This document shows positions 5,115-26,736 of a stretch of DNA of 35,416 bases, piece by piece. The position numbers and the translations under genes were made by a program. A model generated the notes under the pieces. It searched no databases and had not been told where the DNA came from. It saw nothing but the letters and a program-made list of their open reading frames with translations. Within the stretch, counting starts at the first letter, position 1. Every line of letters starts with the position of its first letter. Source of the DNA: an uncultured Candidatus Saccharibacteria bacterium (GTDB taxonomy: Bacteria; Patescibacteriota; Dojkabacteria; SC72); NCBI GenBank assembly GCA_964539195.1, contig CAZIIC010000005.1:1-35416 (forward strand), written 5' to 3'.

Positions 5115-6092
5115 CTATTCTTTAGCAAATATCTCTCTAACTACTCCCTCCAAGTTCATTTCATCTATATCAAGGTCTTCAATTGGAAAACTTTTAAGTA
5201 GTTTTGATGAGGCATTTGCCACATCATTCCTATCAACTTGTATTACGCCAGAAGTATCGTTTAAAGATATTACATCACCTATCTTTTCTAAATCTTCTCT
5301 TTCAATCTTTTTATTAAAAACAAAAGAAATTGTTTTATATTTAACATGTTGGTTTATTAGACTTTTAATACTACCATCGTACATAATTCGACCATCATCA
5401 ATTATTATGACCCGCTTACAAAGCTCTTTTACATCATCCATATTATGACTTGTAAGAATTACGGTTGTACCGTATTGCTCATTATATTCTTTAAAGAATG
5501 ATCTAAGTCGCTTTTGCATAACTACATCAAGACCAATTGTAGGCTCATCAAGAAATACAACCTCTGGTGAATGCAAGAGTGCTGCAACAAGTTCACATTT
5601 CATTTTTTGACCTAGCGATAACTTTCTAACAGGTATATTTACTATTTTACCTAGGCTAAGAAGATCAATTAGATTATTTACTTTCTTTTTAAACTCAACT
5701 TCATCTATCTCATATATCTCTTTATTAAGCATAAAAGAGTCGTAAGCTGGCAGATCCATCCAAAGTTGATTCTTCTGCCCCATTACAAGAGAGATTTTCT
5801 TTAAAAACTCTCTATTTCTCTCCCAAGGTGTATAACCTAAGACTTCAACTTTACCTGAAGTTGGATATAGAAGACCTGATAGACACTTCAAAGTGGTGGT
5901 CTTCCCTGCTCCGTTGGTACCAATAAAACCAACAAACTCACCTTCAGAGATGTCAAAAGAGATACCATCAACAGCATCAACTGTACTATATTGCCTATTA
6001 AACAAACTCTTAACAGATCCTATTAATCCCGGTTCTTTCTTATATACTTTGAACTGCTTTACTAGATTTTCAACTGTTATCACTTTACTCAT
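5115..6092 (-). CDS. ABC transporter ATP-binding protein (COG4586-like, ABC-2 type)
   Basis: Walker A GTNGAGKTT, signature LSLGQKMK, Walker B VVFLDEPT, H-loop TSH. An extra ~90-aa C-terminal domain is present. The motif QLWMDLPAYDSF is typical of this subfamily. Confidence 0.9.
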   Translation of the reverse strand: MSKVITVENLVKQFKVYKKEPGLIGSVKSLFNRQYSTVDAVDGISFDISEGEFVGFIGTNGAGKTTTLKCLSGLLYPTSGKVEVLGYTPWERNREFLKKISLVMGQKNQLWMDLPAYDSFMLNKEIYEIDEVEFKKKVNNLIDLLSLGKIVNIPVRKLSLGQKMKCELVAALLHSPEVVFLDEPTIGLDVVMQKRLRSFFKEYNEQYGTTVILTSHNMDDVKELCKRVIIIDDGRIMYDGSIKSLINQHVKYKTISFVFNKKIEREDLEKIGDVISLNDTSGVIQVDRNDVANASSKLLKSFPIEDLDIDEMNLEGVVREIFAKE

Positions 6093-6134: not shown

Positions 6135-7364
6135 ATGAATAATATGAAATATATGAGAAAACTTTTTACCTCACTTCTTATCATTTTAACCCTTTCAAAT
6201 ACTTCATTAGTATTTGCTGAGACGCTTGAATCAGGAAATTACAAAATCGATGGTGCAAATCTTACAAATGGAGGACAGCCTAAAACATCGGGAACAGGGA
6301 ACTTTAGTTTACTTGAAACAATTGGAGATTTTTCAGGGGATCCAAGAGCATCAAGTACCAACTACCAAACAAAACTTGGAACAGTAGATGTATTTACGGC
6401 AAATGTACCTAAAATATCTTGTTTTGAAACTTCAAGTAGTGGTTCTTCAAACTGTACAACAGGACCAACATACCTAAATAGTAATGGAATGATTACTGTT
6501 TGTGGCCCAAGTGGTTGTTATGACAGAGCCAGAGTTGAAATAGATGCACAGAATAATCCAGACGACACATTATACTCAATTCAAATATCTACAGATAATT
6601 TCGCTTCAGATATTAAATATATAGACGGTGTAACTAAAAAGCCTACACTAATTGCAAACATTACAATTGCTGATTTCTTAACAAAGAGTAGTTGGGAATC
6701 ATCAGCAACAAATATTTTAGGACTTGAGGCAAATACTACTTATTCTGTAAGAGCAACAGCACTACATGGCGACTTTACTCAAAGCCCTGCTGGACCTTCA
6801 ATGAATGCTACCACTGCATTACCAACTATGACTTACGATATAGATATTGCATCAACTACTGGATCAACAACAGAATCAGGCGCACCTTACACGGTTACAT
6901 TTAGTAATAATAGTAAACTAATTCAAACAGGACCAACTCAAACTTCGGATGATTTAATTTGGCTTGATGCTAATACAAATGCACAAGGTGGAGTCGCCAT
7001 ACTTATGAAAGGTTTAAATGGAGGGCTAGAGTCTACAACTGCTTCATATACTATTGATTCAGCTACAGTTGATTTAGATGGAACTTCAGAAGGGTTTGGC
7101 CTACAAAACTATCAAGTATCTCAGTTATATAATTTAGGTAGTGGTAACGGCTCATTATCGACACTAATTCCAAATGCAATTTATACCGGAACTGGAAATA
7201 GTGTTGGACTAATTGATACTCTTTTTACAAAAGTTTACGAGTCAGATGGACCAATACACTCTGGTAGAACATCAGTCTTTCTTAAAGCTCGAGCTTCCGC
7301 TAGCGCAAGTGAAGCATCAGACTATACTGAGACCATTACTATAGTGTTTGTACCTAGATATTAG
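6135..7364 (+). CDS. Secreted surface protein A: signal peptide, SxNY/F repeat head, FN3-like middle, C-terminal module shared with protein B
   Basis: Signal peptide MNNMKYMRKLFTSLLIILTLSNTSLVFA|ETL. Three S/T-x-N-Y/F motifs are present (SGNYKI, TGNFSL, STNYQT). The C-terminal module carries DLDGTSEGFGLQ and the terminal SDYTETITIVFVPRY. Start chosen at the first ATG; the TTG at 6117 was rejected, and 6144 or 6153 remain possible. Confidence 0.8.
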   Translation: MNNMKYMRKLFTSLLIILTLSNTSLVFAETLESGNYKIDGANLTNGGQPKTSGTGNFSLLETIGDFSGDPRASSTNYQTKLGTVDVFTANVPKISCFETSSSGSSNCTTGPTYLNSNGMITVCGPSGCYDRARVEIDAQNNPDDTLYSIQISTDNFASDIKYIDGVTKKPTLIANITIADFLTKSSWESSATNILGLEANTTYSVRATALHGDFTQSPAGPSMNATTALPTMTYDIDIASTTGSTTESGAPYTVTFSNNSKLIQTGPTQTSDDLIWLDANTNAQGGVAILMKGLNGGLESTTASYTIDSATVDLDGTSEGFGLQNYQVSQLYNLGSGNGSLSTLIPNAIYTGTGNSVGLIDTLFTKVYESDGPIHSGRTSVFLKARASASASEASDYTETITIVFVPRY

Positions 7365-7367
7365 TAA

Positions 7368-7396
7368 TTGACAGTAACAGTTAAAAAGAATATTCT
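7368..7396 (+). promoter_or_regulatory. Sigma70-type promoter in front of protein B (TTGACA - 17 bp - TATTCT)
   Basis: Perfect -35 TTGACA at 7368..7373, exact 17-bp spacer, and -10 TATTCT at 7391..7396, all in the 60-nt gap between A and B. Confidence 0.4.
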
Positions 7397-7424
7397 GAAA
7401 TGTAACGATTCAACTTCTAAACCT

Positions 7425-8582
7425 ATGCTTATTGATAATTTAAAAAAGTTCACAAGAATAAAGAAAACATTGCTCCCTACTCTACTTGTTATACTCCTAG
7501 TGGGTATAATTTCGCCGTTATTCCTTTTTAAATCAAACGCAAACTCATTAACTGCTGTATATTTCTTCTTAAGTAGAATGGCAACAAATATTAACGGAAG
7601 TAGTGGTACAGTTGTTTATACATTAGCAGTTGCTCCAAACCAAAGTATGTCTTCTGGGGGTACAGTAACATTAACTTTCCCTGATGCAGATGACTCGAAC
7701 TGGTGCAGAACAACAGGAAGCTTAACAATTACCGCATTAGCATCTTCAATTGCTGACTTATCTTCAACAAACTGGCAGATCGATTCTGCACTTCCAGATA
7801 GTGGATCAGCACTAACTGCAACATGTACTCAAGGGTCTGGCTCAAACTCTGCAGATACTATTACTGTTTCAAATGTTGGTGCATTAACAGGAGGAACAAC
7901 ATACGGATTTTCAATTGCAAACGGTAGTGCTGCAGGTGTTGTAGGAACAGATGATACATCAGGAACACATACCGTTACAGTTAAGGTACAAAGTGGAGCG
8001 ACGATTGACTCCTCTACTTTTGACTTGTATCTAGTATCAACAGACACAGTAACAGTTTCGGCAACAGTTCAAGCTGTACCAACAGTTAACTGCTCAATTA
8101 GTTCAACCACAGTAAACTTAGGTACGCTATTTCCTGGTGGTGCGTTTGCCTCAACAACTAACACTATTACAACATCAACCTCTTCAACAACTGCAGGCTA
8201 CTACTGGTCAGCTTACGGTACTGGGGATGGAAGTACTGACGCAGGATTATACAAATCAACAGCGACAACATACTTAATCGGTTCAACTGGAAGCGGTACA
8301 ATTAACCTAAATGGACTAGGTACCGAAGGATTTGGTATTACAGTTTCAGATCCAGATGCAGGAGGAGCAGCCGTAGTACCATCAGACTTTAGCGATTCAT
8401 CAAGTGGAGTATTTGGAGCTCTTGATAGATCAAGTGCAAACGCACAATTAATTCTATACCAGAATGGAGCACAAACAAGCCCGGATAATGCCACTATAAC
8501 CTATGGGGGTAAGGCAGGATCATCTGCTGAAGCTGGAAGCTATACTGAAACAGTATATTTTGTATGTGGTGGATACTATTAA
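7425..8582 (+). CDS. Secreted or anchored Ser/Thr/Gly/Ala-rich surface protein B (candidate fibre subunit)
   Basis: The ATG at 7425 gives MLIDNLKKFTRIKKTLLPTLLVILLVGIISPLFLF (basic n-region plus hydrophobic core). The composition is very S/T/G/A-rich. The C-terminal module carries NLNGLGTEGFGITV and the terminal GSYTETVYFVCGGYY, homologous to protein A. Confidence 0.8.
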   Translation: MLIDNLKKFTRIKKTLLPTLLVILLVGIISPLFLFKSNANSLTAVYFFLSRMATNINGSSGTVVYTLAVAPNQSMSSGGTVTLTFPDADDSNWCRTTGSLTITALASSIADLSSTNWQIDSALPDSGSALTATCTQGSGSNSADTITVSNVGALTGGTTYGFSIANGSAAGVVGTDDTSGTHTVTVKVQSGATIDSSTFDLYLVSTDTVTVSATVQAVPTVNCSISSTTVNLGTLFPGGAFASTTNTITTSTSSTTAGYYWSAYGTGDGSTDAGLYKSTATTYLIGSTGSGTINLNGLGTEGFGITVSDPDAGGAAVVPSDFSDSSSGVFGALDRSSANAQLILYQNGAQTSPDNATITYGGKAGSSAEAGSYTETVYFVCGGYY

Positions 8583-8593
8583 TACGAAATGAC

Positions 8594-9610
8594 ATGAAAT
8601 TATCAATAACAATAAGCAGTTTAATATTTCTACTTTCATTGTTATTTCCCTTTAAGTCACTAGCACAAACTCTTAATAATAATAGTATCTCTTTGGGATT
8701 TGCACCAACAGCTCAGTACCTACAATTAAAACCGGGATCTAAATTTACAGGAGAGATTACAGTTTGGAATCTTTCCCCTCAAACAAGATCTTTTAACATC
8801 ACAATACGAGGATTTGAACAGATAGAAAACCTACCAGGTACAGCTAGAGTCAATACAGAATCAGAGGAACTTAGAGATCCTTTCTCAGCAGGTTCTTGGA
8901 TTAAAGTACCATATAAAAAGATATTTTTAATACCTAATCAATATACAAAAGTCCCATTTGAAATTAACGTACCTACTGACGCAGCTTCTGGAGAATTTAA
9001 CGCTATGATTTTCATAGTTTCAGAAACACCCAATGTAGACCTCGGCCCAAATTCAACATCTAATTCAAACTTAGGATCAGGACCAGTACTACTTGTAAAA
9101 GTCGGAGACAAAATTGAAGAAAAAGCAGAAATCGAATATTTCAGAAGTGAAAACGATTTCTACGAACTTCCACCTGTAAACTTTTTAACAAGGTATGTAA
9201 ACAAGAGTAATACACACATTAAACCAGCTGGAGAAATAATCATTGAGAACTTCTTAGGACAAGAGATTGCAACAGTACCATTTAACAGCAATAATCAAAG
9301 TCTATTAAGAGGTGCTTCTGGAAATTATACAGACGAATGGAATCACAAAGGAATCTTTACAGTCAACGGTAAGCTATCAATCGGCCCTCTTAAAGCAAGA
9401 TTGATTACTACATACCGGTCACAAAACCCTGGATACGCACCATTAAATTCAACATATACTTTCTGGGTTCTACCATACAAACACATACTAGTAATTCTTC
9501 TAGTTGTCGGTATAATATATAAAGTTATTTCAAACCTCACACGTAAAAATGAGAAAAAGCCATCTAATAAAAGGGATTCTTCTGATTTTAATTACCCTAT
9601 TTACTCTTAG
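8594..9610 (+). CDS. Membrane-tethered two-domain beta-rich surface protein C (DUF916/DUF3324-like architecture)
   Basis: Signal peptide MKLSITISSLIFLLSLLFPFKSLA|QT, followed by two beta-rich domains with motifs VPFEINVPTDAASGEFNAMIFIV and HIKPAGEIIIENFLGQEI. A C-terminal TM (HILVILLVVGIIYKVI) and basic tail follow. Paralogue of D. Confidence 0.8.
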   Translation: MKLSITISSLIFLLSLLFPFKSLAQTLNNNSISLGFAPTAQYLQLKPGSKFTGEITVWNLSPQTRSFNITIRGFEQIENLPGTARVNTESEELRDPFSAGSWIKVPYKKIFLIPNQYTKVPFEINVPTDAASGEFNAMIFIVSETPNVDLGPNSTSNSNLGSGPVLLVKVGDKIEEKAEIEYFRSENDFYELPPVNFLTRYVNKSNTHIKPAGEIIIENFLGQEIATVPFNSNNQSLLRGASGNYTDEWNHKGIFTVNGKLSIGPLKARLITTYRSQNPGYAPLNSTYTFWVLPYKHILVILLVVGIIYKVISNLTRKNEKKPSNKRDSSDFNYPIYS

Positions 9611-10484
9611 TACTTCATACACAAAAGTTGGCGCTACAACTATCTCCCCAACTGTAAAAAACTATATCGTCGAGAAAGACGATATTATTTTTGAAGAGAT
9701 TAAATATAAAAACGATAGCAATAAAACAGAGAGTATCACTCTTTCTATTTCATCATATGACACCAAAAAAGAGGTTAACCTTACAGACAAGCCGTTTATT
9801 ACTGTAAAAAGCACTAAGTTTACGGTAAAGCCAAAAACTGAAATATCTATACCATATATTGTTTCAATACCATCAGATATCCCTGCAGGTACATACTTTA
9901 ATGTCGTATACATAGAGAAAAAAGAAAAAGACACCAAGAGTGGTAATGTCACCGTTATACAATCAAACGGAATACTCTTCTCATTTCATGTTCAGGACAG
10001 CACAACATCTTTAAACCAAATTTTCTATAATCAGAGTGATATTAAGCTAGTAATTAAGAACAAAGGGCTTCCATACTACATACCTACACAATTCGAATAT
10101 GTGTATACAAACAACTCAAACTTTGTATTTAAACCTCAAGGTGAAATTAGAATTATTGATTCCAAAGGTAATCAAGTGATGGAAAGATTTGAAATAAATA
10201 AAGATATTAAAACTGTATATCCCGGAGAAACAATTTCACAAACATTCGAAGTAAATATTTGGAAAGATTTAAGCAGCATACTTGAGAGTAAGACGATTGT
10301 AAGTAAAACATATAGCGATATTGATCAAACTCCAGTACTTAACAAAGTAGATGTATCTATCCTTTATCAAATTGGAGTAATCGTTGGAGTTGTAGCAATA
10401 ATTGTTATTGCCATTCTAACAATTTCCGTTATTTCAATAATAAAGTGGGTAAAATCTAAAAAGAAGAAAGAATCTGAGAAGTAG
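9549..10484 (+). CDS. Membrane-tethered two-domain beta-rich surface protein D (paralogue of C)
   Basis: Signal peptide MRKSHLIKGILLILITLFTLSTSYTKVGA|TT. Motifs are IPYIVSIPSDIPAGTYFNVVYIE and VFKPQGEIRIIDSKGNQV. A long C-terminal TM (IGVIVGVVAIIVIAILTISVISII) and a KSKKKKESEK tail follow. Confidence 0.8.
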   Translation: MRKSHLIKGILLILITLFTLSTSYTKVGATTISPTVKNYIVEKDDIIFEEIKYKNDSNKTESITLSISSYDTKKEVNLTDKPFITVKSTKFTVKPKTEISIPYIVSIPSDIPAGTYFNVVYIEKKEKDTKSGNVTVIQSNGILFSFHVQDSTTSLNQIFYNQSDIKLVIKNKGLPYYIPTQFEYVYTNNSNFVFKPQGEIRIIDSKGNQVMERFEINKDIKTVYPGETISQTFEVNIWKDLSSILESKTIVSKTYSDIDQTPVLNKVDVSILYQIGVIVGVVAIIVIAILTISVISIIKWVKSKKKKESEK

Positions 10485-17991: not shown

Positions 17992-19131
17992 ATGTTAATA
18001 GCTCATGGACCAATAGCAATCATTGCTACAAAACTTAGTAATGGAAGATTATTAAAAACTCTTAAGAAAAAAGAGCTTATTCTTCTATATATTTTCTCTT
18101 TCTTTCTAGGAATATTTCCAGACTTTGATATCTTTTATCTAGCTTCAGTTGGAAAACCACCATTTTTACATCATTCTCTTCTATCTCATACTCCAATTCT
18201 TTGGATTGGCATAACAATACTAGTTGCTATTGTACTTGAGTATCTTAAATGGCCAAAAACAAACACAAAGAGGAAAATAATATATATAACTATTCTGGCA
18301 AGTTCTATTTCCCATATGCTCGCAGACCTAATTGGGGGGCATATTATGTTTTTTACCCCATTCTACTCTCAATACTTAACAATATTAGGGAATATTTTTC
18401 CGGACAATTTATTTGCAGGATACTTTGCAAATCCACTCTTTGCACTTGAGATACTATTTATTTCCATCTGTCTTCTATACCTTCTATATGAATTCATTAA
18501 TCTCAAGCTATTTACCCTAATTGTTCTACCAATCGCATACTTAATATTTAACCTTTATACATATTCCTCTGTATATCAAGTTGATATTTTCAAAAAAGAG
18601 AATGGTAATCCAATATTTGATACAGATGAGGATAGACTAGCAGATTCATATGATTATGATGTCGATAATAACTTTGTTGATAATTTTAAACAGGTAACTA
18701 AAGATCAACTTATATTGGAATTTGAGAAAGTATACTCATCAACAACAATACTCCCAGCAAAGAACAGAACAATTGAGGAGCAGATTAAATATACATACGG
18801 TGGTCACACACTTTTAAGAGCAATTCTACAGGCATACGCACAAACTGGAAATTATCTAACCCCAGTTGTTTCCGATTATATGAATAGAAATAATATTGAG
18901 AGTTTCTCTAAAGCTCTATTTCCATATCTATTTTCTACTAACACTTTTAAAAAGTCTTCTGAAGTTAAAGATATTAAGCCAGGGGCTCTTGTAATTGTTA
19001 AATATTCAGATGAGGAATATTCGTTAGGTATTGTGCTAAAGAATTTGAAGCTTTTTATACAAAACGAAAATGGAGTTCCAGTTGAAATGGAAATGAAAGA
19101 TATTTCTCAAGAGTTATTTATACAAGAGTAA
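17992..19131 (+). CDS. Membrane-bound metal-dependent hydrolase (YdjM/DUF457-like) fused to an uncharacterised C-terminal soluble domain
   Basis: The N-terminal ~190 aa is polytopic, with HGP, FPDFD, HHS..SHTP and SH..AD..GGH motifs typical of DUF457. The C-terminal ~185 aa is hydrophilic and begins with an acidic D-rich segment (DTDEDRLADSYDYDVDNNFVDN). Confidence 0.6.
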   Translation: MLIAHGPIAIIATKLSNGRLLKTLKKKELILLYIFSFFLGIFPDFDIFYLASVGKPPFLHHSLLSHTPILWIGITILVAIVLEYLKWPKTNTKRKIIYITILASSISHMLADLIGGHIMFFTPFYSQYLTILGNIFPDNLFAGYFANPLFALEILFISICLLYLLYEFINLKLFTLIVLPIAYLIFNLYTYSSVYQVDIFKKENGNPIFDTDEDRLADSYDYDVDNNFVDNFKQVTKDQLILEFEKVYSSTTILPAKNRTIEEQIKYTYGGHTLLRAILQAYAQTGNYLTPVVSDYMNRNNIESFSKALFPYLFSTNTFKKSSEVKDIKPGALVIVKYSDEEYSLGIVLKNLKLFIQNENGVPVEMEMKDISQELFIQE

Positions 19132-20778: not shown

Positions 20779-20809
20779 TGCGTAGCGATTATAGCATATG
20801 GGCTACGCA
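20779..20809. repeat. GC-rich 8-bp inverted repeat (tgcgtagc / gctacgca) with a 15-nt loop, overlapping the stop codon of the upstream surface-protein gene
   Basis: 20779..20786 is perfectly complementary to 20802..20809. It is the most GC-rich stem seen in any intergenic region of the window. Confidence 0.6.
20788..20796 (-). promoter_or_regulatory. Extended -10 element TGCTATAAT for rpsU, located in the loop of the inverted repeat
   Basis: The reverse complement of attatagca is TGCTATAAT, an exact TGnTATAAT. It lies 28 nt upstream of the rpsU start. Confidence 0.45.
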
Positions 20810-22500
20810 CCTGCCACTCTATTTTCAAAATCTTCTTTTCTTTTCTTTTTTAGTCTTCCTGAAATATCAAGATCACTAAAAATCTTTCCCTCAGAGTATA
20901 GATAGATTGCGCTACCAGCAATCAAAATTATACCTAATACTACTTTTGAGGCTGTAGAATCAAACAATCCAGTTTGTGGTGCATCACAACCAACAATAGT
21001 TACTTCTGTTGTTTGAATAGCGTCCCCACTATCAGGTGTTCCTGTTACAGTATTAATATATGTTCCAAAGCTTGATTGAGGAACAACCATCGAGTATTTA
21101 AATGTTTTTGATTGACCAGGTGTGAATAATCCAAGAGCACCAGATACATCCCAGGTAAGGGTTCTTCCACTTACATCTGCGTCAGGAACAACTGTATTTT
21201 GCTGTATAAAACTACTTTTAACTTTTGCGTCTTGGGTATCAACTAAAGTAGATAATTGTCCTGCTAAATCACCTACATTCTTAATTGTAATTGTGTAATC
21301 AACTTGAGCTTTCTGAGCACCAGCTGTTTTATCAATACAAATCGAAGCGCCAGTTTTGCTAATCTCCCAATCTGGGTTTCCTTGAATATTTGATGTAATC
21401 ACTCTACTTCCCTGACACGAAGATCCAGTTATTCCTTTAGTATCTTCCCAAGTTGCGGCAAAGGTATGAGCGCCTGCAGTTGTAACTGTATATGAGTATG
21501 TCCAATCAACAACAGGCTTTCCAGCGGCGGCTACACATGCGGCATCAGTACTACCTGCAGGACATAACTTATCAGTGGCAGTTGCATTACCAACAACAAC
21601 TCCATCAACTTTAACGACAATCTTACTCTTATTAATTCCATCTGTATCATATGCATACCCACTAAACACAACAACTTCCCCTACTTCATAATCAGCACTG
21701 TTTGTTGGAGTTTTAACTCCACCACCATTACATACATTTACTCCTGGAGTCTCAGGTGTTTCAGGATTCTCTTCATTACATGGGATATACCAACTTGCAT
21801 ATCTAACGCCATCTACTCCAATAAAATCTGCCTGTACCCATCCACAATGCGAAGAAGGAAAGCTGTTTGAACATACACTACTACCATTAACTTGACTTCC
21901 GTTTTGTTGACATCCTTGGCTATTATTATTCTGAGGCATATCAGGACAATAATAGAGATTATATCCACTTGCCCCGCTAAGTGTGGCGCATCCATTAACT
22001 ATAGGTACGTTAGTATATGTAGGCTGTCCATTACCACTTTCTGGTTTGCATCCTTGAGGGTCGAAAGTATTGCACTGGTAAGCAGTAGTACAAGAATCAC
22101 CAGCGTTTGTAACATCAATACAATTACACAAATATCCAGTATTTCCATTATTATTTGTTTGACAGGTTGGCTTTGAGCCGAGTTTGCACACCGTACCCTG
22201 AGAATTATTACATCCAGTCTCACCACCCCCACCTCCACCATCACATCTATTACCACTTTCTCCACATCCACCATCCCTCCAGACACATTCATACCTAGAT
22301 CCATCGCCCTTTGCACCACCACAACCTCCACATTCCTTAGGTGATTCTGCAGCACTACAACCAGCAGCACTACTCTCTGTTGGAGCAATATTTACTTTCC
22401 CTGTTAAACTCCATAATCCAAATCCTAATCCGAAAGAAATAATTGAAAGTATTAGGAATAATAAAATCAATCCAACTGGTTTTATTCTAATCTGTGCCAT
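20803..22500 (-). CDS. Large cell-surface protein: N-terminal TM/signal, Cys/Gly-rich region, Ig-like/DUF11-like beta domains, C-terminal PQTG + TM + basic tail
   Basis: N-terminus is MAQIRIKPVGLILLFLILSIISFGLGFGLW, followed by about 20 Cys in the next ~210 aa. An ISKTG...YTITIKNVGD-type repeat domain is present. The C-terminus is GCDAPQTGLFDSTASK-VVLGIILIAGSAIYLY-...RLKKKRKED. Confidence 0.8.
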   Translation of the reverse strand: MAQIRIKPVGLILLFLILSIISFGLGFGLWSLTGKVNIAPTESSAAGCSAAESPKECGGCGGAKGDGSRYECVWRDGGCGESGNRCDGGGGGGETGCNNSQGTVCKLGSKPTCQTNNNGNTGYLCNCIDVTNAGDSCTTAYQCNTFDPQGCKPESGNGQPTYTNVPIVNGCATLSGASGYNLYYCPDMPQNNNSQGCQQNGSQVNGSSVCSNSFPSSHCGWVQADFIGVDGVRYASWYIPCNEENPETPETPGVNVCNGGGVKTPTNSADYEVGEVVVFSGYAYDTDGINKSKIVVKVDGVVVGNATATDKLCPAGSTDAACVAAAGKPVVDWTYSYTVTTAGAHTFAATWEDTKGITGSSCQGSRVITSNIQGNPDWEISKTGASICIDKTAGAQKAQVDYTITIKNVGDLAGQLSTLVDTQDAKVKSSFIQQNTVVPDADVSGRTLTWDVSGALGLFTPGQSKTFKYSMVVPQSSFGTYINTVTGTPDSGDAIQTTEVTIVGCDAPQTGLFDSTASKVVLGIILIAGSAIYLYSEGKIFSDLDISGRLKKKRKEDFENRVAGA

Positions 22501-25644: not shown

Positions 25645-26736
25645 TTACTTTAATAAATCCAATACTGCAGTTACGTTCTTGTCAGTAATTCCTTTAACTT
25701 TAAGAAGATCTGCTTCTGTTGCACCTCTTAAATCATCAATCTTTTCAAATCCTGCTGTTATTAAAGCTTTCTTTACTCTAACAGGAAGATCCGTACCTTC
25801 TATTGAAAGTGGGTCAACTGGTTTTTCAATTACTCTTACGACACTCTTTGCAACAGCGTCATCAATTTTACCCTGTCTTAAAGCTTTCAATCTTTCTTTT
25901 TCAGCTTCTTCCATAGCTTTAACTCTTTCAACTTCAGCTGAATAGTCTGAGCTCATTCTCTCAAGTGATGTTACGTGTGAAGTTCTAGTTGCAATTAATT
26001 GCTTAGAATATCTTGAGTTCTCAATGGCTTTTCCGAATAGTTCAACAAAAAGTGAAATACTCTTTAATGAGTCATCGTTAGCTGGTATTACATGAGTAAT
26101 TCCATCTGGATTACTATTTGAGTCAACAAGTGACACAACAGGAATACCACTGATAATACACTCTTTAATTGCATTCTTTTCAACTTTAGTATCAATTACA
26201 ACAACTAGGGCTGGCAACTTATCCATGAACTTGATTCCATCATAGATCTTGTTTAATCGCTCTACGTCTCTTTGCATTAATAACTGCTCTTTTTTAACCA
26301 TTCCTTTTGCACCACTAGCAATAGTGATTTCCATCTTTACAAGGTTGTCTACACTTCTTTTAACACCTCTAAAGTTTGTGAAAAGTCCACCTGGCCATCT
26401 CTTATTAATATAGAATGCACCTTTTTGTAATGCCATTTGCTGAACCATAGTAGCAGCTTGACCCTTTGTTCCAACAACCATGATATATCCAGTTTGAGCA
26501 GCCTTTTGAATAGCAGCTAAAGCTTGTTTAGTCTTGGTAAGTGTTTTTACAAGGTCAATGATATGAGCACCATTTCTTCCCTCATAAATGTATGGCTTCA
26601 TTTTAGGATTCCAAGCACTAGTTCTGTGTCCAAAGTGGGCACCTGCTTGTAGCAATTCTTCAAGTGAAGGTAATGTAACTTCAGGCATTTGTTTTACTTC
26701 TTCTACCTGTACAGAAGTTTTGATTTCCTTTTGCAT
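25645..26736 (-). CDS. rpsB: 30S ribosomal protein S2 with a ~120-aa C-terminal extension ending in an RpoA-alphaCTD-like HhH domain
   Basis: S2 core: LLQAGAHFGHRTSAWNPKMKPYIYEGRNGAHIIDL...VDSNSNPDGITHVIPANDDS. The extra C-terminus has a coiled segment EVERVKAMEEAEKERLKALRQ, then LPVRVKKALITAGFEKIDDLRGATEADLLKVKGITDKNVTAVLDLLK. Confidence 0.9.
   Translation of the reverse strand: MQKEIKTSVQVEEVKQMPEVTLPSLEELLQAGAHFGHRTSAWNPKMKPYIYEGRNGAHIIDLVKTLTKTKQALAAIQKAAQTGYIMVVGTKGQAATMVQQMALQKGAFYINKRWPGGLFTNFRGVKRSVDNLVKMEITIASGAKGMVKKEQLLMQRDVERLNKIYDGIKFMDKLPALVVVIDTKVEKNAIKECIISGIPVVSLVDSNSNPDGITHVIPANDDSLKSISLFVELFGKAIENSRYSKQLIATRTSHVTSLERMSSDYSAEVERVKAMEEAEKERLKALRQGKIDDAVAKSVVRVIEKPVDPLSIEGTDLPVRVKKALITAGFEKIDDLRGATEADLLKVKGITDKNVTAVLDLLK

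What the first reader, a model, noticed from the sequence alone, without database searches (positions are those of the whole stretch)
6135..10484. Four-gene secreted/anchored surface-structure locus with WxL/Csc-like logic but none of the known signature motifs
Four consecutive same-strand genes, none with an enzymatic motif. Proteins A (6135-7364) and B (7425-8582) have signal peptides and are Ser/Thr/Gly/Ala-rich. They share a C-terminal module: A has DLDGTSEGFGLQ and ends SDYTETITIVFVPRY; B has NLNGLGTEGFGITV and ends GSYTETVYFVCGGYY. Proteins C (8594-9610) and D (9549-10484) are paralogues. Each has a signal peptide, two beta-rich domains with shared motifs, one C-terminal TM helix and a Lys-rich tail. 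The shared motifs are VPFEINVPTDAASGEFNAMIFIV / IPYIVSIPSDIPAGTYFNVVYIE and HIKPAGEIIIENFLGQEI / VFKPQGEIRIIDSKGNQV. Two secreted subunit-like proteins plus two membrane-tethered Ig-like proteins mirror Firmicute WxL/Csc loci (WxL-domain proteins plus DUF916/DUF3324 anchored proteins). The aromatic-terminated Y-T-E-T-hydrophobic last strand is also reminiscent of strand-complemented pilins. However, there is no WxL motif, LPXTG partner, sortase, usher or prepilin signal. In a streamlined, possibly episymbiotic organism this is a plausible undescribed surface fibre or attachment module.
Basis: partly seen in the sequence, partly recalled or inferred. Interest (0 to 1): 0.75.

Follow-up and report, generated by a model that had tools for sequence, protein, structure and literature searches.

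The report
WxLIP-like surface-anchor cluster in Dojkabacteria
Four neighbouring genes of an ultrasmall (CPR/Dojkabacteria) bacterium probably build a cell-surface complex: two membrane-anchored proteins distantly related to the 'WxL-interacting' anchors of lactic-acid bacteria and enterococci, and two secreted partners that share a previously undescribed docking domain in place of the WxL domain.

Summary
Four same-strand genes (A 6135-7364, B 7425-8582, C 8594-9610, D 9549-10484) encode two acidic secreted proteins and two basic proteins with a signal peptide, two beta-domains, one TM helix and a Lys-rich tail.

- **C and D:** The C-family profile hits the solved EfmWxLIP1 structure (E 2e-8). 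PF06030 (DUF916/WxLIP_PGBD) matches 76 of 110 family members. D is a divergent paralogue of C (hhalign 97%).
- **A and B:** they share a C-terminal ~180-residue beta-sandwich module (hhalign 92%, P 6e-7) that almost always ends in Tyr or Phe. It is not detectably a WxL domain (Pfam none; deep profile-profile P>0.08; no strong Foldseek hit).
- **Conservation:** the A-B-C-D block is fixed in order in about 46 complete Dojkabacteria loci. A, B and C diverge about as little as the CysRS and RNase HII genes beside the block. Other CPR lineages carry small client + large client + one anchor, the same count as the minimal Firmicute WxL cluster.

Best reading: a CPR variant of the WxL/WxLIP display system with a different client domain. 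Binding of A/B by C/D is inferred, not shown.

The parts
6135..7364 (+). Gene A: secreted acidic 409-aa 'large client'. It has a signal peptide (aa 1-28), a low-confidence N-terminal region with three [STG]xN[YF] repeats (aa 29-89), a Cys-containing FN3-like domain (aa ~90-225) and the C-terminal docking module (aa 226-409).
   Evidence: ORF. 170 homologues. AF2 model pLDDT 87.5, with residues 22-90 at low confidence. 45/93 homologues give weak fn3 hits. Repeats.
6810..7364 (+). A C-terminal module: a ~184-aa beta-sandwich shared with B. It ends in ...DYxExIxhhhhPR[YF]-COOH.
   Evidence: AF2 pLDDT 92.4. hhalign against the B module gives Prob 92.3%, P 5.6e-7. The last residue is Y or F in 117/120 homologues. 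No Pfam, PDB or WxL match.
7425..8582 (+). Gene B: secreted acidic 385-aa client. It has a signal peptide (aa 1-39), an N-terminal beta-rich domain (aa 40-214) and the C-terminal module (aa 215-385, nt 8067-8579) ending in ...AGSYxExVxFxCGGYY-COOH.
   Evidence: ORF. 57 orthologues from loci, all ending in Y. Alignment A7. No Pfam family. The module is homologous to 228-252-aa CPR proteins (Prob 96.5%).
8594..9610 (+). Gene C: basic 338-aa membrane anchor. It has a signal peptide (aa 1-24), a DUF916/WxLIP_PGBD-like Ig domain (aa 25-172, nt 8666-9109), a second beta domain (aa 173-291), a TM helix (aa ~297-315) and a Lys/Arg-rich tail.
   Evidence: PF06030 at E 0.0032 for C itself and in 76/110 relatives. 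The family profile hits PDB 9i25_C/9i1y_A EfmWxLIP1 at E 2.1e-8. hhalign against Firmicute references gives 87%, P 3.8e-6 on the trimmed domain. Hydropathy.
9549..10484 (+). Gene D: basic 311-aa divergent paralogue of C with the same architecture. It has a signal peptide (aa 1-29), domain 1 (aa 30-150), domain 2 (aa 151-270), a TM helix (aa ~273-298) and a KWVKSKKKKESEK tail. Its start overlaps the end of C by 62 nt.
   Evidence: BLASTP C vs D is collinear. hhalign C vs D 97%. Domain 1 vs domain 1 90%; D domain 1 vs DUF916 references 61%, P 8e-5. Only 1/36 D orthologues touches PF06030 or PF11797.

Best explanation
The locus encodes a Patescibacteria (CPR) version of the WxL/WxLIP-type surface-display complex of monoderm bacteria.

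C and D are Sec-exported type-I membrane proteins. Each has an N-terminal DUF916/PGBD-like Ig domain and a second Ig-like domain outside the cell, one TM helix and a short basic cytoplasmic tail. A and B are Sec-secreted acidic proteins. Each ends in the same ~180-residue beta-sandwich module with a near-invariant aromatic C-terminus.

I propose that this module plays the role the WxL domain plays in Firmicutes. It would dock non-covalently onto the basic, membrane-tethered C/D scaffold, probably by beta-strand insertion or edge-strand pairing. That would hold A and B at the cell surface with their N-terminal parts facing outwards (A: [STG]xN[YF] repeats plus an FN3-like domain; B: a beta-rich domain).

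- **Shown:** gene structure, export and anchor signals, homology of C/D domain 1 to WxLIP_PGBD, homology of the A and B modules to each other, strict co-conservation, and recurrence of the module + anchor pairing across CPR.
- **Inferred:** the physical A/B-C/D interaction, its strand-insertion mode, which client pairs with which anchor, and the biological role (envelope scaffold or attachment).
For: 1. **Anchor homology.** C hits PF06030, as do 76/110 family representatives, best E 8.5e-12. The family profile hits solved EfmWxLIP1 (9i25_C, 9i1y_A) at E 2.1e-8 over the PGBD. hhalign against 7 Firmicute WxLIP references gives 93-95% full length and 87% (P 3.8e-6) with signal peptide and TM removed. 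C vs D gives 97%.
2. **Same architecture and size as WxLIP** (320-380 aa; signal peptide, two Ig domains, TM; PMC10599100), and the same charge pattern: the small WxL clients are generally predicted acidic (PMC9772566) and the L. plantarum and L. monocytogenes anchors strongly basic (PMC10599100).
3. **A and B share one module** (Prob 92.3%). The module sits at the extreme C-terminus, as WxL does.
4. **Co-conservation.** A-B-C-D is kept in order in 46 complete loci. Genes abut or overlap (C/D by 62 nt).
5. **Different genomic contexts.** Four other CPR loci carry small module protein + large module protein + one C/D-like protein, without CysRS or RNase HII nearby. In one of them the anchor passes Pfam's PF06030 cut-off (L084, 30.0 bits; the strongest CPR match, L067 at 44.5 bits, lies in a differently arranged locus). 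This count equals the minimal WxL cluster (1 WxLIP + 2 WxL).
6. **Co-variation.** Pairwise-distance matrices of A, C and D correlate at r = 0.91-0.93. After regressing out neighbouring CysRS and RNase HII they still correlate at 0.65-0.74.
7. **Precedent.** WxLIP and WxL self-associate and bind each other in biosensor (biocore) assays (cited in PMC9772566), and AF2 predicts that a WxLIP hairpin strand inserts into WxL (PMC10599100). A solved entry holding both chains exists (9i25).
Against: - No interaction was tested or predicted here.
- A and B are not detectably WxL. Pfam gives nothing. hhalign against a 130-sequence WxL profile gives Prob <1%, P 0.08-0.38. The solved WxL chain 9i25_A is not among the top 50 Foldseek hits, although whether that entry is in the Foldseek library was not verified.
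- The second domain of C/D shows no DUF3324 signal.
- The conserved NQIDKxxxYFDLK motif of Firmicute PGBDs is absent.
- D's link to WxLIP is mostly indirect, through C.
- A, B and C evolve as slowly as the CysRS and RNase HII genes beside them (mean pairwise distance 0.45-0.48 vs 0.42-0.45). That fits a core envelope structure better than a host-specific adhesin.
- B co-varies less with C and D (r about 0.55).
- The mirror-tree control is crude and gives no probability.
Confidence: 0.55

Rival explanations
1. A and B are truly, but extremely, divergent WxL domains. The locus would then be a bona fide WxL cluster whose Trp-x-Leu motifs have drifted to Phe/Val-x-Ile and Ile/Phe-x-Phe.
For: - By eye, A has a strand-turn-strand LIWLD-ANTNAQGG-VAILMKG. 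This resembles WxL motif 1 (VQVTD-xRGTxAG-WxLxV).
- A's C-terminal ...KARA(x6-8)DYTETITIVFVP resembles ...VPG(x6-8)YxTTLTWTLxDAP.
- hhalign's best, non-significant, local alignment pairs exactly these C-terminal strands in that register.
- The A module has an N-terminal strand followed by about 34 irregular residues, as described for WxL.
- The module is C-terminal, acidic and clustered with a DUF916 protein.
Against: - Every statistical test failed. There is no PF13731 hit in 93 A or 40 B relatives.
- hhalign against a 130-sequence WxL profile gives Prob 0.2-0.7%, the same as negative controls.
- There is no PDB sequence hit to 9i25_A, and it is not in the Foldseek top 50.
- Both Trp residues and the Asp/Arg pair that define the motif are missing.
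Confidence: 0.15
2. A and/or B are subunits of a non-covalent surface fibre that polymerises by donor-strand exchange, like TasA or chaperone-usher pilins. C and D would act as the membrane-bound base or assembly chaperones.
For: - The top Foldseek hits of the A module are almost all donor-strand-complemented subunits: CfaB 4y2l_F (E 8.4e-3, TM 0.43), CS17, CS20, FimG, FimA, PapA and CsuE, plus the TasA fibre 8aur.
- A carries a disordered N-terminal segment with three short strand-like [STG]xN[YF] repeats that could act as donor strands.
- The same repeats precede the module in 228-232-aa CPR proteins.
- High sequence conservation suits a structural polymer.
Against: - No hit reaches E 1e-3, and TM scores are 0.3-0.45.
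- The module is predicted as a complete, confident sandwich (pLDDT 92.4) with no missing strand.
- There is no usher, periplasmic-type chaperone, SipW-type peptidase or sortase in the locus or the window.
- Generic Ig-like sandwiches often retrieve pilins.
Confidence: 0.18
3. The four genes are independent exported proteins. Their adjacency would reflect only the strongly conserved core-genome synteny of Dojkabacteria, not a functional unit.
For: - The block lies in a housekeeping region (ABC ATPase, tRNA-Ser, RNase HII, CysRS, RecR, DnaX, Mfd) whose order is itself conserved.
- There is no experimental evidence for a complex.
Against: - The upstream neighbours change (L003/L004) while the block does not.
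- The module + DUF916-like pairing recurs in other CPR classes in unrelated contexts.
- The genes abut or overlap.
- A, C and D co-vary beyond two neighbouring housekeeping genes.
- The homologous Firmicute proteins are known to work as a cluster.
Confidence: 0.1

Closest known systems
Firmicute WxL (Csc) gene clusters: small WxL + large WxL + WxLIP (DUF916-DUF3324-TM), with or without an LPXTG protein. Sources: Siezen 2006; Brinster 2007; Galloway-Pena 2015; Hassan & Williamson 2022/2023 (PMC9772566, PMC10599100).
   Same: - A signal-peptide-bearing, about 310-340-aa anchor with a DUF916-like first Ig domain, a second Ig-like domain, a TM helix and a basic tail.
- Acidic secreted partners whose shared domain sits at the extreme C-terminus.
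- One short and one multi-domain client in other CPR loci.
- Tight same-strand clustering.
- No covalent anchoring needed.
   Different: - The client domain is not WxL: no Trp-x-Leu motifs, no PF13731 hit and no profile similarity.
- The second anchor domain is not detectably DUF3324.
- The PGBD N-terminal NQIDKxxxYFDLK motif is absent.
- There are two anchors rather than one in Dojkabacteria.
- There is no LPXTG protein or sortase in the cluster.
- The host is a CPR bacterium, whereas more than 91% of WxL sequences are from Firmicutes.
- The genes are as conserved as the housekeeping genes next to them and sit in the core genome, not on variable loci or plasmids.
Solved EfmWxLIP1 (PDB 9i1y) and the entry 9i25, which holds EfmWxLIP1 together with a 'WxL domain surface protein' chain.
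   Same: The C-family profile aligns to EfmWxLIP1 residues 23-150 (PGBD) at E 2.1e-8. A weak collinear second match falls in the second domain.
   Different: - Only about 125 residues align significantly.
- The A-module profile does not hit chain A.
- Foldseek did not place 9i25_A in the top 50.
Donor-strand-complemented fibres: chaperone-usher pilins (CfaB, FimA/G, PapA, Csu) and TasA.
   Same: They are Ig-like beta-sandwich subunits. They are the best, though weak, structural neighbours of the A module. A has an N-terminal unstructured, strand-prone extension.
   Different: - There is no usher, chaperone or SipW.
- The module is predicted complete.
- Similarity is below conventional thresholds.
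- The organism is a monoderm without an outer membrane.

Membership tests
WxLIP (WxL-interacting protein; Pfam PF06030 + PF11797 + TM): proteins C and D | N-terminal signal peptide and a single C-terminal TM helix with a basic tail; length about 320-380 aa | tested here: met
   Sequence and hydropathy. C is 338 aa and D is 311 aa, slightly short. Definition from PMC10599100.
WxLIP (WxL-interacting protein; Pfam PF06030 + PF11797 + TM): proteins C and D | First domain homologous to DUF916 / WxLIP_PGBD (PF06030) | tested here: met
   C scores 17.9 bits, below the 27.3 cut-off. However, 76/110 relatives hit PF06030, and two CPR relatives exceed the cut-off. The family profile hits EfmWxLIP1 at E 2.1e-8. 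hhalign gives 87% on the trimmed domain. D is linked only through C (90-97%) and a 61% direct hit.
WxLIP (WxL-interacting protein; Pfam PF06030 + PF11797 + TM): proteins C and D | Second domain homologous to DUF3324 / WxLIP_HBD (PF11797) | tested here: not met
   PF11797 does not appear among the families matched by the 110 C-type relatives, and only 1/36 D orthologues gives a weak hit. hhalign domain 2 vs HBD gives P 0.26-0.62. A beta domain of the right size and position is present, so fold-level equivalence stays open.
WxLIP (WxL-interacting protein; Pfam PF06030 + PF11797 + TM): proteins C and D | Conserved NQIDKxxxYFDLK motif near the PGBD N-terminus | tested here: not met
   C has ...GFAPTAQYLQLKPG... 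at the equivalent place. Only a Y-hydrophobic-x-L remnant is left.
WxLIP (WxL-interacting protein; Pfam PF06030 + PF11797 + TM): proteins C and D | Encoded in a cluster with at least two WxL-domain proteins | tested here: not met
   The two neighbouring secreted proteins are not detectably WxL. They share a different module.
WxL domain (PF13731): proteins A and B | Two conserved Trp-x-Leu motifs with their flanking consensus (DxRGTxAGWxL; YxxTLTWxLxDAP) | tested here: not met
   No such motifs are present. Only a loosely similar pattern is seen by eye.
WxL domain (PF13731): proteins A and B | Sequence or profile homology to WxL | tested here: not met
   Pfam gives none for 93 A and 40 B relatives. 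hhalign against a 130-sequence WxL profile gives Prob <1%. There is no PDB sequence hit.
WxL domain (PF13731): proteins A and B | Fold like the solved WxL chain (9i25_A) | tested here: inconclusive
   9i25_A is not in the Foldseek top 50 for the A-module model. Only 50 of 690 matches are shown, the presence of 9i25 in the Foldseek library was not verified, and no direct superposition tool was available.
WxL domain (PF13731): proteins A and B | Domain at the extreme C-terminus of a secreted protein, clustered with a DUF916 protein | tested here: met
Donor-strand-exchange fibre subunits (chaperone-usher pilins / TasA) | Significant structural similarity to a pilin or TasA subunit | tested here: inconclusive
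   These are the best hits, but they are weak (E >= 8e-3, TM 0.3-0.45).
Donor-strand-exchange fibre subunits (chaperone-usher pilins / TasA) | Dedicated assembly genes (usher and chaperone, or a SipW-type peptidase) in the locus | tested here: not met
   None is present in the window or in syntenic loci.
Sortase-anchored LPXTG surface proteins / sortase pili | C-terminal LPXTG-type sorting signal and a sortase gene | tested here: not met
   A-D carry no LPXTG signal, and no TLxTC sortase signature occurs in the window.

The most novel reading that the evidence does not exclude
The A/B C-terminal module is a new, CPR-wide docking domain that evolved, or diverged beyond recognition, as the counterpart of WxL. 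Together with DUF916-like anchors it would form a core, housekeeping-grade envelope structure of Dojkabacteria and many other Patescibacteria. Candidates are a surface lattice or the attachment interface used for episymbiosis. If so, the WxLIP-based display system would be an ancient monoderm invention rather than a Firmicute speciality.
Probability: 0.3. Interest if true: 0.75.

Novelty: new variant of a known kind. Interest (0 to 1): 0.55.

Why it matters
Patescibacteria make up a large share of bacterial diversity and are thought to live attached to other cells. Apart from type IV pili, almost nothing is known about their surface proteins.

This locus gives a concrete, testable candidate: a four-protein surface complex. 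It is present in essentially every Dojkabacteria genome sampled here, it is as conserved as the housekeeping genes next to it, and it has simpler three-gene relatives in other CPR classes.

It also extends the WxLIP (DUF916) anchor far outside Firmicutes and shows that the anchor can be paired with a different client domain. That helps separate what is essential in WxL-type systems (the anchor and a C-terminal docking sandwich) from what is lineage-specific (the Trp-x-Leu motifs, DUF3324, LPXTG partners). I found no paper in the searchable library that links DUF916 or WxL to CPR bacteria.

Tried and rejected
- **Direct Pfam/NCBIfam scans of A-D.** Only a sub-threshold PF06030 hit for C.
- **BLASTP A vs B.** Not significant. 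Profile methods were needed.
- **Foldseek of full-length A against the PDB.** Generic Ig/FN3 hits only, confounded by the multi-domain query. Repeated with the isolated module and against the viral BFVD library: nothing at E<=1e-3.
- **The listing of cluster members for taxonomy of distant C relatives.** No names returned.
- **The search for related loci with the 110-sequence alignment.** Repeated with a 25-sequence alignment.
- **WxL hypothesis for A/B.**
  - Reference WxL loci were fetched through a tblastn search seeded with a consensus-like query that I wrote from memory. The query was only bait. All hits used are annotated WxL genes.
  - A shallow profile (11 sequences) and then a deep one (130 sequences) both gave no signal.
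- **DUF3324 for the second domain of C/D.** No signal.
- **D-family profile against the PDB.** No hit.
- **Promoter and terminator scans.** Fewer promoter-like sites than in shuffles, and nothing usable.
- **LPXTG and sortase regex over the window.** Negative for the locus.
- **Literature.** No paper was found linking WxL or DUF916 to CPR, and none describing PDB 9i25.

Full report
**What is there**

The window is a low-GC (about 34%) stretch of a Candidatus Dojkabacteria (WS6, CPR/Patescibacteria) genome, judged by the source names of the closest homologues. Four + strand ORFs lie at the stated coordinates: A 6135-7364 (409 aa), B 7425-8582 (385 aa), C 8594-9610 (338 aa) and D 9549-10484 (311 aa).

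- All four begin with a hydrophobic signal-peptide-like segment.
- Only C and D have a second hydrophobic segment near the C-terminus, followed by a Lys/Arg-rich tail.
- A and B are acidic (pI 4.5 and 4.2) and rich in Ser/Thr/Gly/Ala. C and D are basic (pI 9.1 and 9.2).
- B is followed by C after 11 nt. C and D overlap by 62 nt.

The neighbours are housekeeping genes: CCA-adding enzyme, a GDE_C-like glycosidase, an ABC ATPase, tRNA-Ser, RNase HII, CysRS, RecR, DnaX, Mfd, TopA, PBP2 and MreB. I found no sortase, usher, chaperone or prepilin peptidase.

**C and D are remote WxLIP (DUF916) homologues**

C alone gives a sub-threshold hit to PF06030 (WxLIP_PGBD, formerly DUF916). The hit is E 0.0032 and 17.9 bits against a 27.3-bit cut-off, but it covers positions 21-113 of the 121-position model.

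A profile of 14 C orthologues, searched against 1.84 billion cluster representatives, found 6226 relatives at E<=1e-3. Of 110 sampled members, 76 hit PF06030 (best E 8.5e-12) and none hit PF11797 (DUF3324). The same 110-sequence profile hits the solved Enterococcus faecium EfmWxLIP1 (PDB 9i25 chain C, 9i1y chain A) at E 2.1e-8 over the PGBD (profile 39-163, chain 23-150).

I fetched seven annotated Firmicute 'DUF916 and DUF3324 domain-containing' proteins with their WxL neighbours from plasmid records. hhalign comparisons against them gave:

| Comparison | Prob | P |
|---|---|---|
| C family, full length | 93.3% | 2.6e-7 |
| D family, full length | 95.3% | 2.2e-8 |
| C domain 1, signal peptide and TM removed | 87% | 3.8e-6 |
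| D domain 1, signal peptide and TM removed | 61% | 8.3e-5 |
| Second domains vs DUF3324 | none | 0.26-0.62 |
| C vs D, full length | 97% | 1.1e-10 |
| C domain 1 vs D domain 1 | 90% | 1.5e-6 |

BLASTP of C against D gives 22% identity over 287 collinear residues. The D family on its own is almost invisible to Pfam and the PDB.

So C, and D through C, belongs to the DUF916 superfamily and keeps the whole WxLIP architecture: signal peptide, two beta domains, a TM helix and a basic tail. The second domain and the Firmicute NQIDKxxxYFDLK motif are not recognisably conserved.

**A and B share a module that is not detectably WxL**

The AF2 model of A (93-sequence alignment, pLDDT 87.5) shows three regions:

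- A low-confidence N-terminal region (residues 22-90). It carries three [STG]xN[YF] repeats.
- A Cys-containing FN3-like domain. 45/93 homologues give weak fn3 hits.
- A C-terminal beta-sandwich.

Modelled alone, the C-terminal 184 residues reach pLDDT 92.4.

BLASTP sees no A/B similarity beyond the last 17 residues. Profile comparison of the C-terminal domains gives Prob 42% with Dojkabacteria sequences only. It rises to Prob 92.3%, P 5.6e-7 over 133 columns once more diverse CPR B-like sequences are added. Controls score P 0.1-0.8. The shared module is therefore real.

The module ends in ...GRxxhxhKAxA(x6-8)DYxExIxhhhhPR[YF] in A and in ...AGSYxExVxFxCGGYY in B. The last residue is Tyr or Phe in 117/120 A homologues and Tyr in 57/57 B orthologues.

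By eye, the module echoes the WxL consensus in two places: a strand-turn-strand around D-x-N...GG-[FV]-A-I, and a last strand Y-x-E-x-I-x-[FI]. hhalign's best local alignment pairs the last strands in that register. No test supports homology, however:

- PF13731 is absent from all 93 A and 40 B relatives.
- hhalign against an 11-sequence and then a 130-sequence WxL profile gives Prob <1%, P 0.08-0.38, like the negative controls.
- The module profile does not hit the solved WxL chain 9i25_A.
- Foldseek of the module finds nothing at E<=1e-3. Its top hits are chaperone-usher pilins (CfaB 4y2l_F, E 8.4e-3, TM 0.43; CS17/CS20; FimA/G; PapA; CsuE) and the TasA fibre. The viral library adds nothing.

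I therefore treat the module as a distinct family that is unannotated in Pfam. True but unrecognisable WxL ancestry remains a 15% rival.

**Conservation and distribution**

A genome scan with a C-family alignment returned 293 confirmed relatives, and 80 loci were kept. Classifying the ORFs with family HMMs shows A+ B+ C+ D+ followed by RNase HII and CysRS in 46 loci. The remaining Dojkabacteria-type loci are the same block cut by contig ends. Searches show the same block, with different upstream genes in L003/L004.

Over 43 non-redundant genomes, mean pairwise distances are A 0.45, B 0.46, C 0.48 and D 0.65. The CysRS and RNase HII genes beside the block score 0.42 and 0.45. A, B and C are thus about as conserved as these two housekeeping genes, which is unusual for adhesins. 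Distance matrices of A, C and D correlate at 0.91-0.93, and at 0.65-0.74 after regressing out the two housekeeping genes. B correlates less, at about 0.55. This is suggestive co-evolution, not a calibrated test.

Outside Dojkabacteria, C/D-like genes sit beside genes for module-bearing secreted proteins, in contexts that lack CysRS and RNase HII. These contigs are labelled Woykebacteria, Saccharibacteria, Pacebacteria and 'Patescibacteria group', plus some labelled Gammaproteobacteria or Nanoarchaeia; I did not verify those labels.

- Four loci (L073, L075, L082, L084) have a 228-232-aa protein ([STG]xN[YF] repeats + module), a 357-381-aa B-like protein and one anchor.
- Eight of ten such anchors hit PF06030. 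Two exceed the curated cut-off: L084 at 30.0 bits and L067 at 44.5 bits.
- Their secreted neighbours have no Pfam match.

One anchor plus one small and one large client is exactly the minimal Firmicute WxL cluster (1 WxLIP + small WxL + large WxL; PMC10599100 and PMC9772566).

**How it most likely works**

The literature on Firmicutes reports the following:

- WxLIP is a membrane-tethered pair of Ig domains.
- Its unstable DUF916 domain is proposed to bind and stabilise WxL on the wall.
- AF2 predicts that a WxLIP hairpin strand inserts into the WxL sandwich.
- DufA, SwpA and LwpA bind each other in biosensor (biocore) assays.
- An entry holding both chains is now in the PDB.

By homology of the anchor and analogy of everything else, I propose that C and D tether A and B at the cell surface. 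The features that match are position, size, the C-terminal location of the client domain and the acidic-client/basic-anchor charge pattern. C/D domain 1 would dock onto the A/B C-terminal module.

One candidate contact segment in C is the invariant GFxQIENxPGTA...W stretch (G73, F74, Q76, E78, P81, G82, T83, W102). It aligns with the long inter-strand excursion of EfmWxLIP1. This assignment is an inference.

The strictly terminal aromatic residue of A and B suggests that the free C-terminal strand is part of the interface or of the module's core. The high conservation argues for a core envelope scaffold or a conserved attachment device rather than a variable adhesin.

I put 0.55 on this model. 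The rivals are: a donor-strand fibre (0.18), truly divergent WxL (0.15; same mechanism, different ancestry) and mere synteny (0.10).

**Comparison with the known, and novelty**

- For C and D, membership of the DUF916 superfamily is met. Full WxLIP membership is not, because DUF3324, the N-terminal motif and WxL partners fail.
- For A and B, WxL membership is not met.

The system therefore works like a WxL cluster but is a new variant: a WxLIP-type anchor paired with a different client domain, in a different phylum, fixed in the core genome. No paper in the searchable library connects WxL or DUF916 with CPR bacteria.

**Limits**

- There was no multimer prediction, no structure for B, C or D, and no direct structural superposition.
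- hhalign was run without secondary-structure scoring.
- The Firmicute reference sets came from plasmids only.
- Whether 9i25 is included in the Foldseek PDB library was not verified.

Noticed in passing
window 20803-22500 (-): A 565-aa exported Cys/Gly-rich protein with a weak DUF11 repeat hit (E 2.9e-4). It ends in APQTG + hydrophobic stretch + KKKRK, which looks like a sortase-type sorting signal. No TLxTC sortase signature occurs anywhere in the window.
   Followed up: partly
window 25645-26736 (-): Ribosomal protein S2 (363 aa) carries a C-terminal extension that matches the RNA polymerase alpha C-terminal domain / helix-hairpin-helix families (PF03118, E 1.8e-6). This is an unusual fusion.
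   Followed up: no
window 17992-19131 (+): A 379-aa ORF with several hydrophobic segments in its N-terminal half and no Pfam match. It is the only + strand gene in a long run of - strand genes.
   Followed up: no
P0115, P0118, P0124-P0134; loci L026 111-1994, L027 3842-5740, L039 3695-5638, L058 1196-3046: Some A orthologues are 605-647 aa and carry an extra LamG/laminin-G-like domain (PF13385; some also PF00354). The outward-facing part of A is therefore modular while the C-terminal module stays fixed.
   Followed up: partly
window 6219-6401; L073 5157-5840, L075 4984-5670, L084 5150-5845: Three short [STG]xN[YF] repeats follow the signal peptide of A (SGNYKIDGAN, TGNFSLLETI, STNYQTKLGT). The same repeats head 228-232-aa module proteins in other CPR lineages. 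AF2 gives them low confidence. Their role (donor strands or a binding peptide?) is unexplained.
   Followed up: partly
window 9549-9610; L001 7971-8026: The end of C (cytoplasmic tail) and the start of D (signal peptide) overlap by 62 nt in different frames. The overlap is 56 nt in a relative, but only 4 nt or none in more distant Dojkabacteria.
   Followed up: partly
L067-L069, L074, L079 (labelled Gammaproteobacteria); L075, L084 (labelled Nanoarchaeia): Contigs carrying CPR-type anchor/module loci come from MAGs whose record titles name unrelated taxa. This points to mislabelled or contaminated bins, or to wider distribution or transfer of the system. It was not resolved.
   Followed up: no
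window 5115-6092 (-): An ABC-transporter ATPase gene lies divergently upstream of A here and in L001/L002, but not in L003/L004. It is probably unrelated to the locus, and no permease gene is adjacent.
   Followed up: partly
window 9664-9685: A perfect 8-bp inverted repeat with T-runs on both sides lies inside the 5' part of D, just downstream of the C stop. It matches the terminator pattern on both strands and could attenuate read-through from C into D.
   Followed up: no
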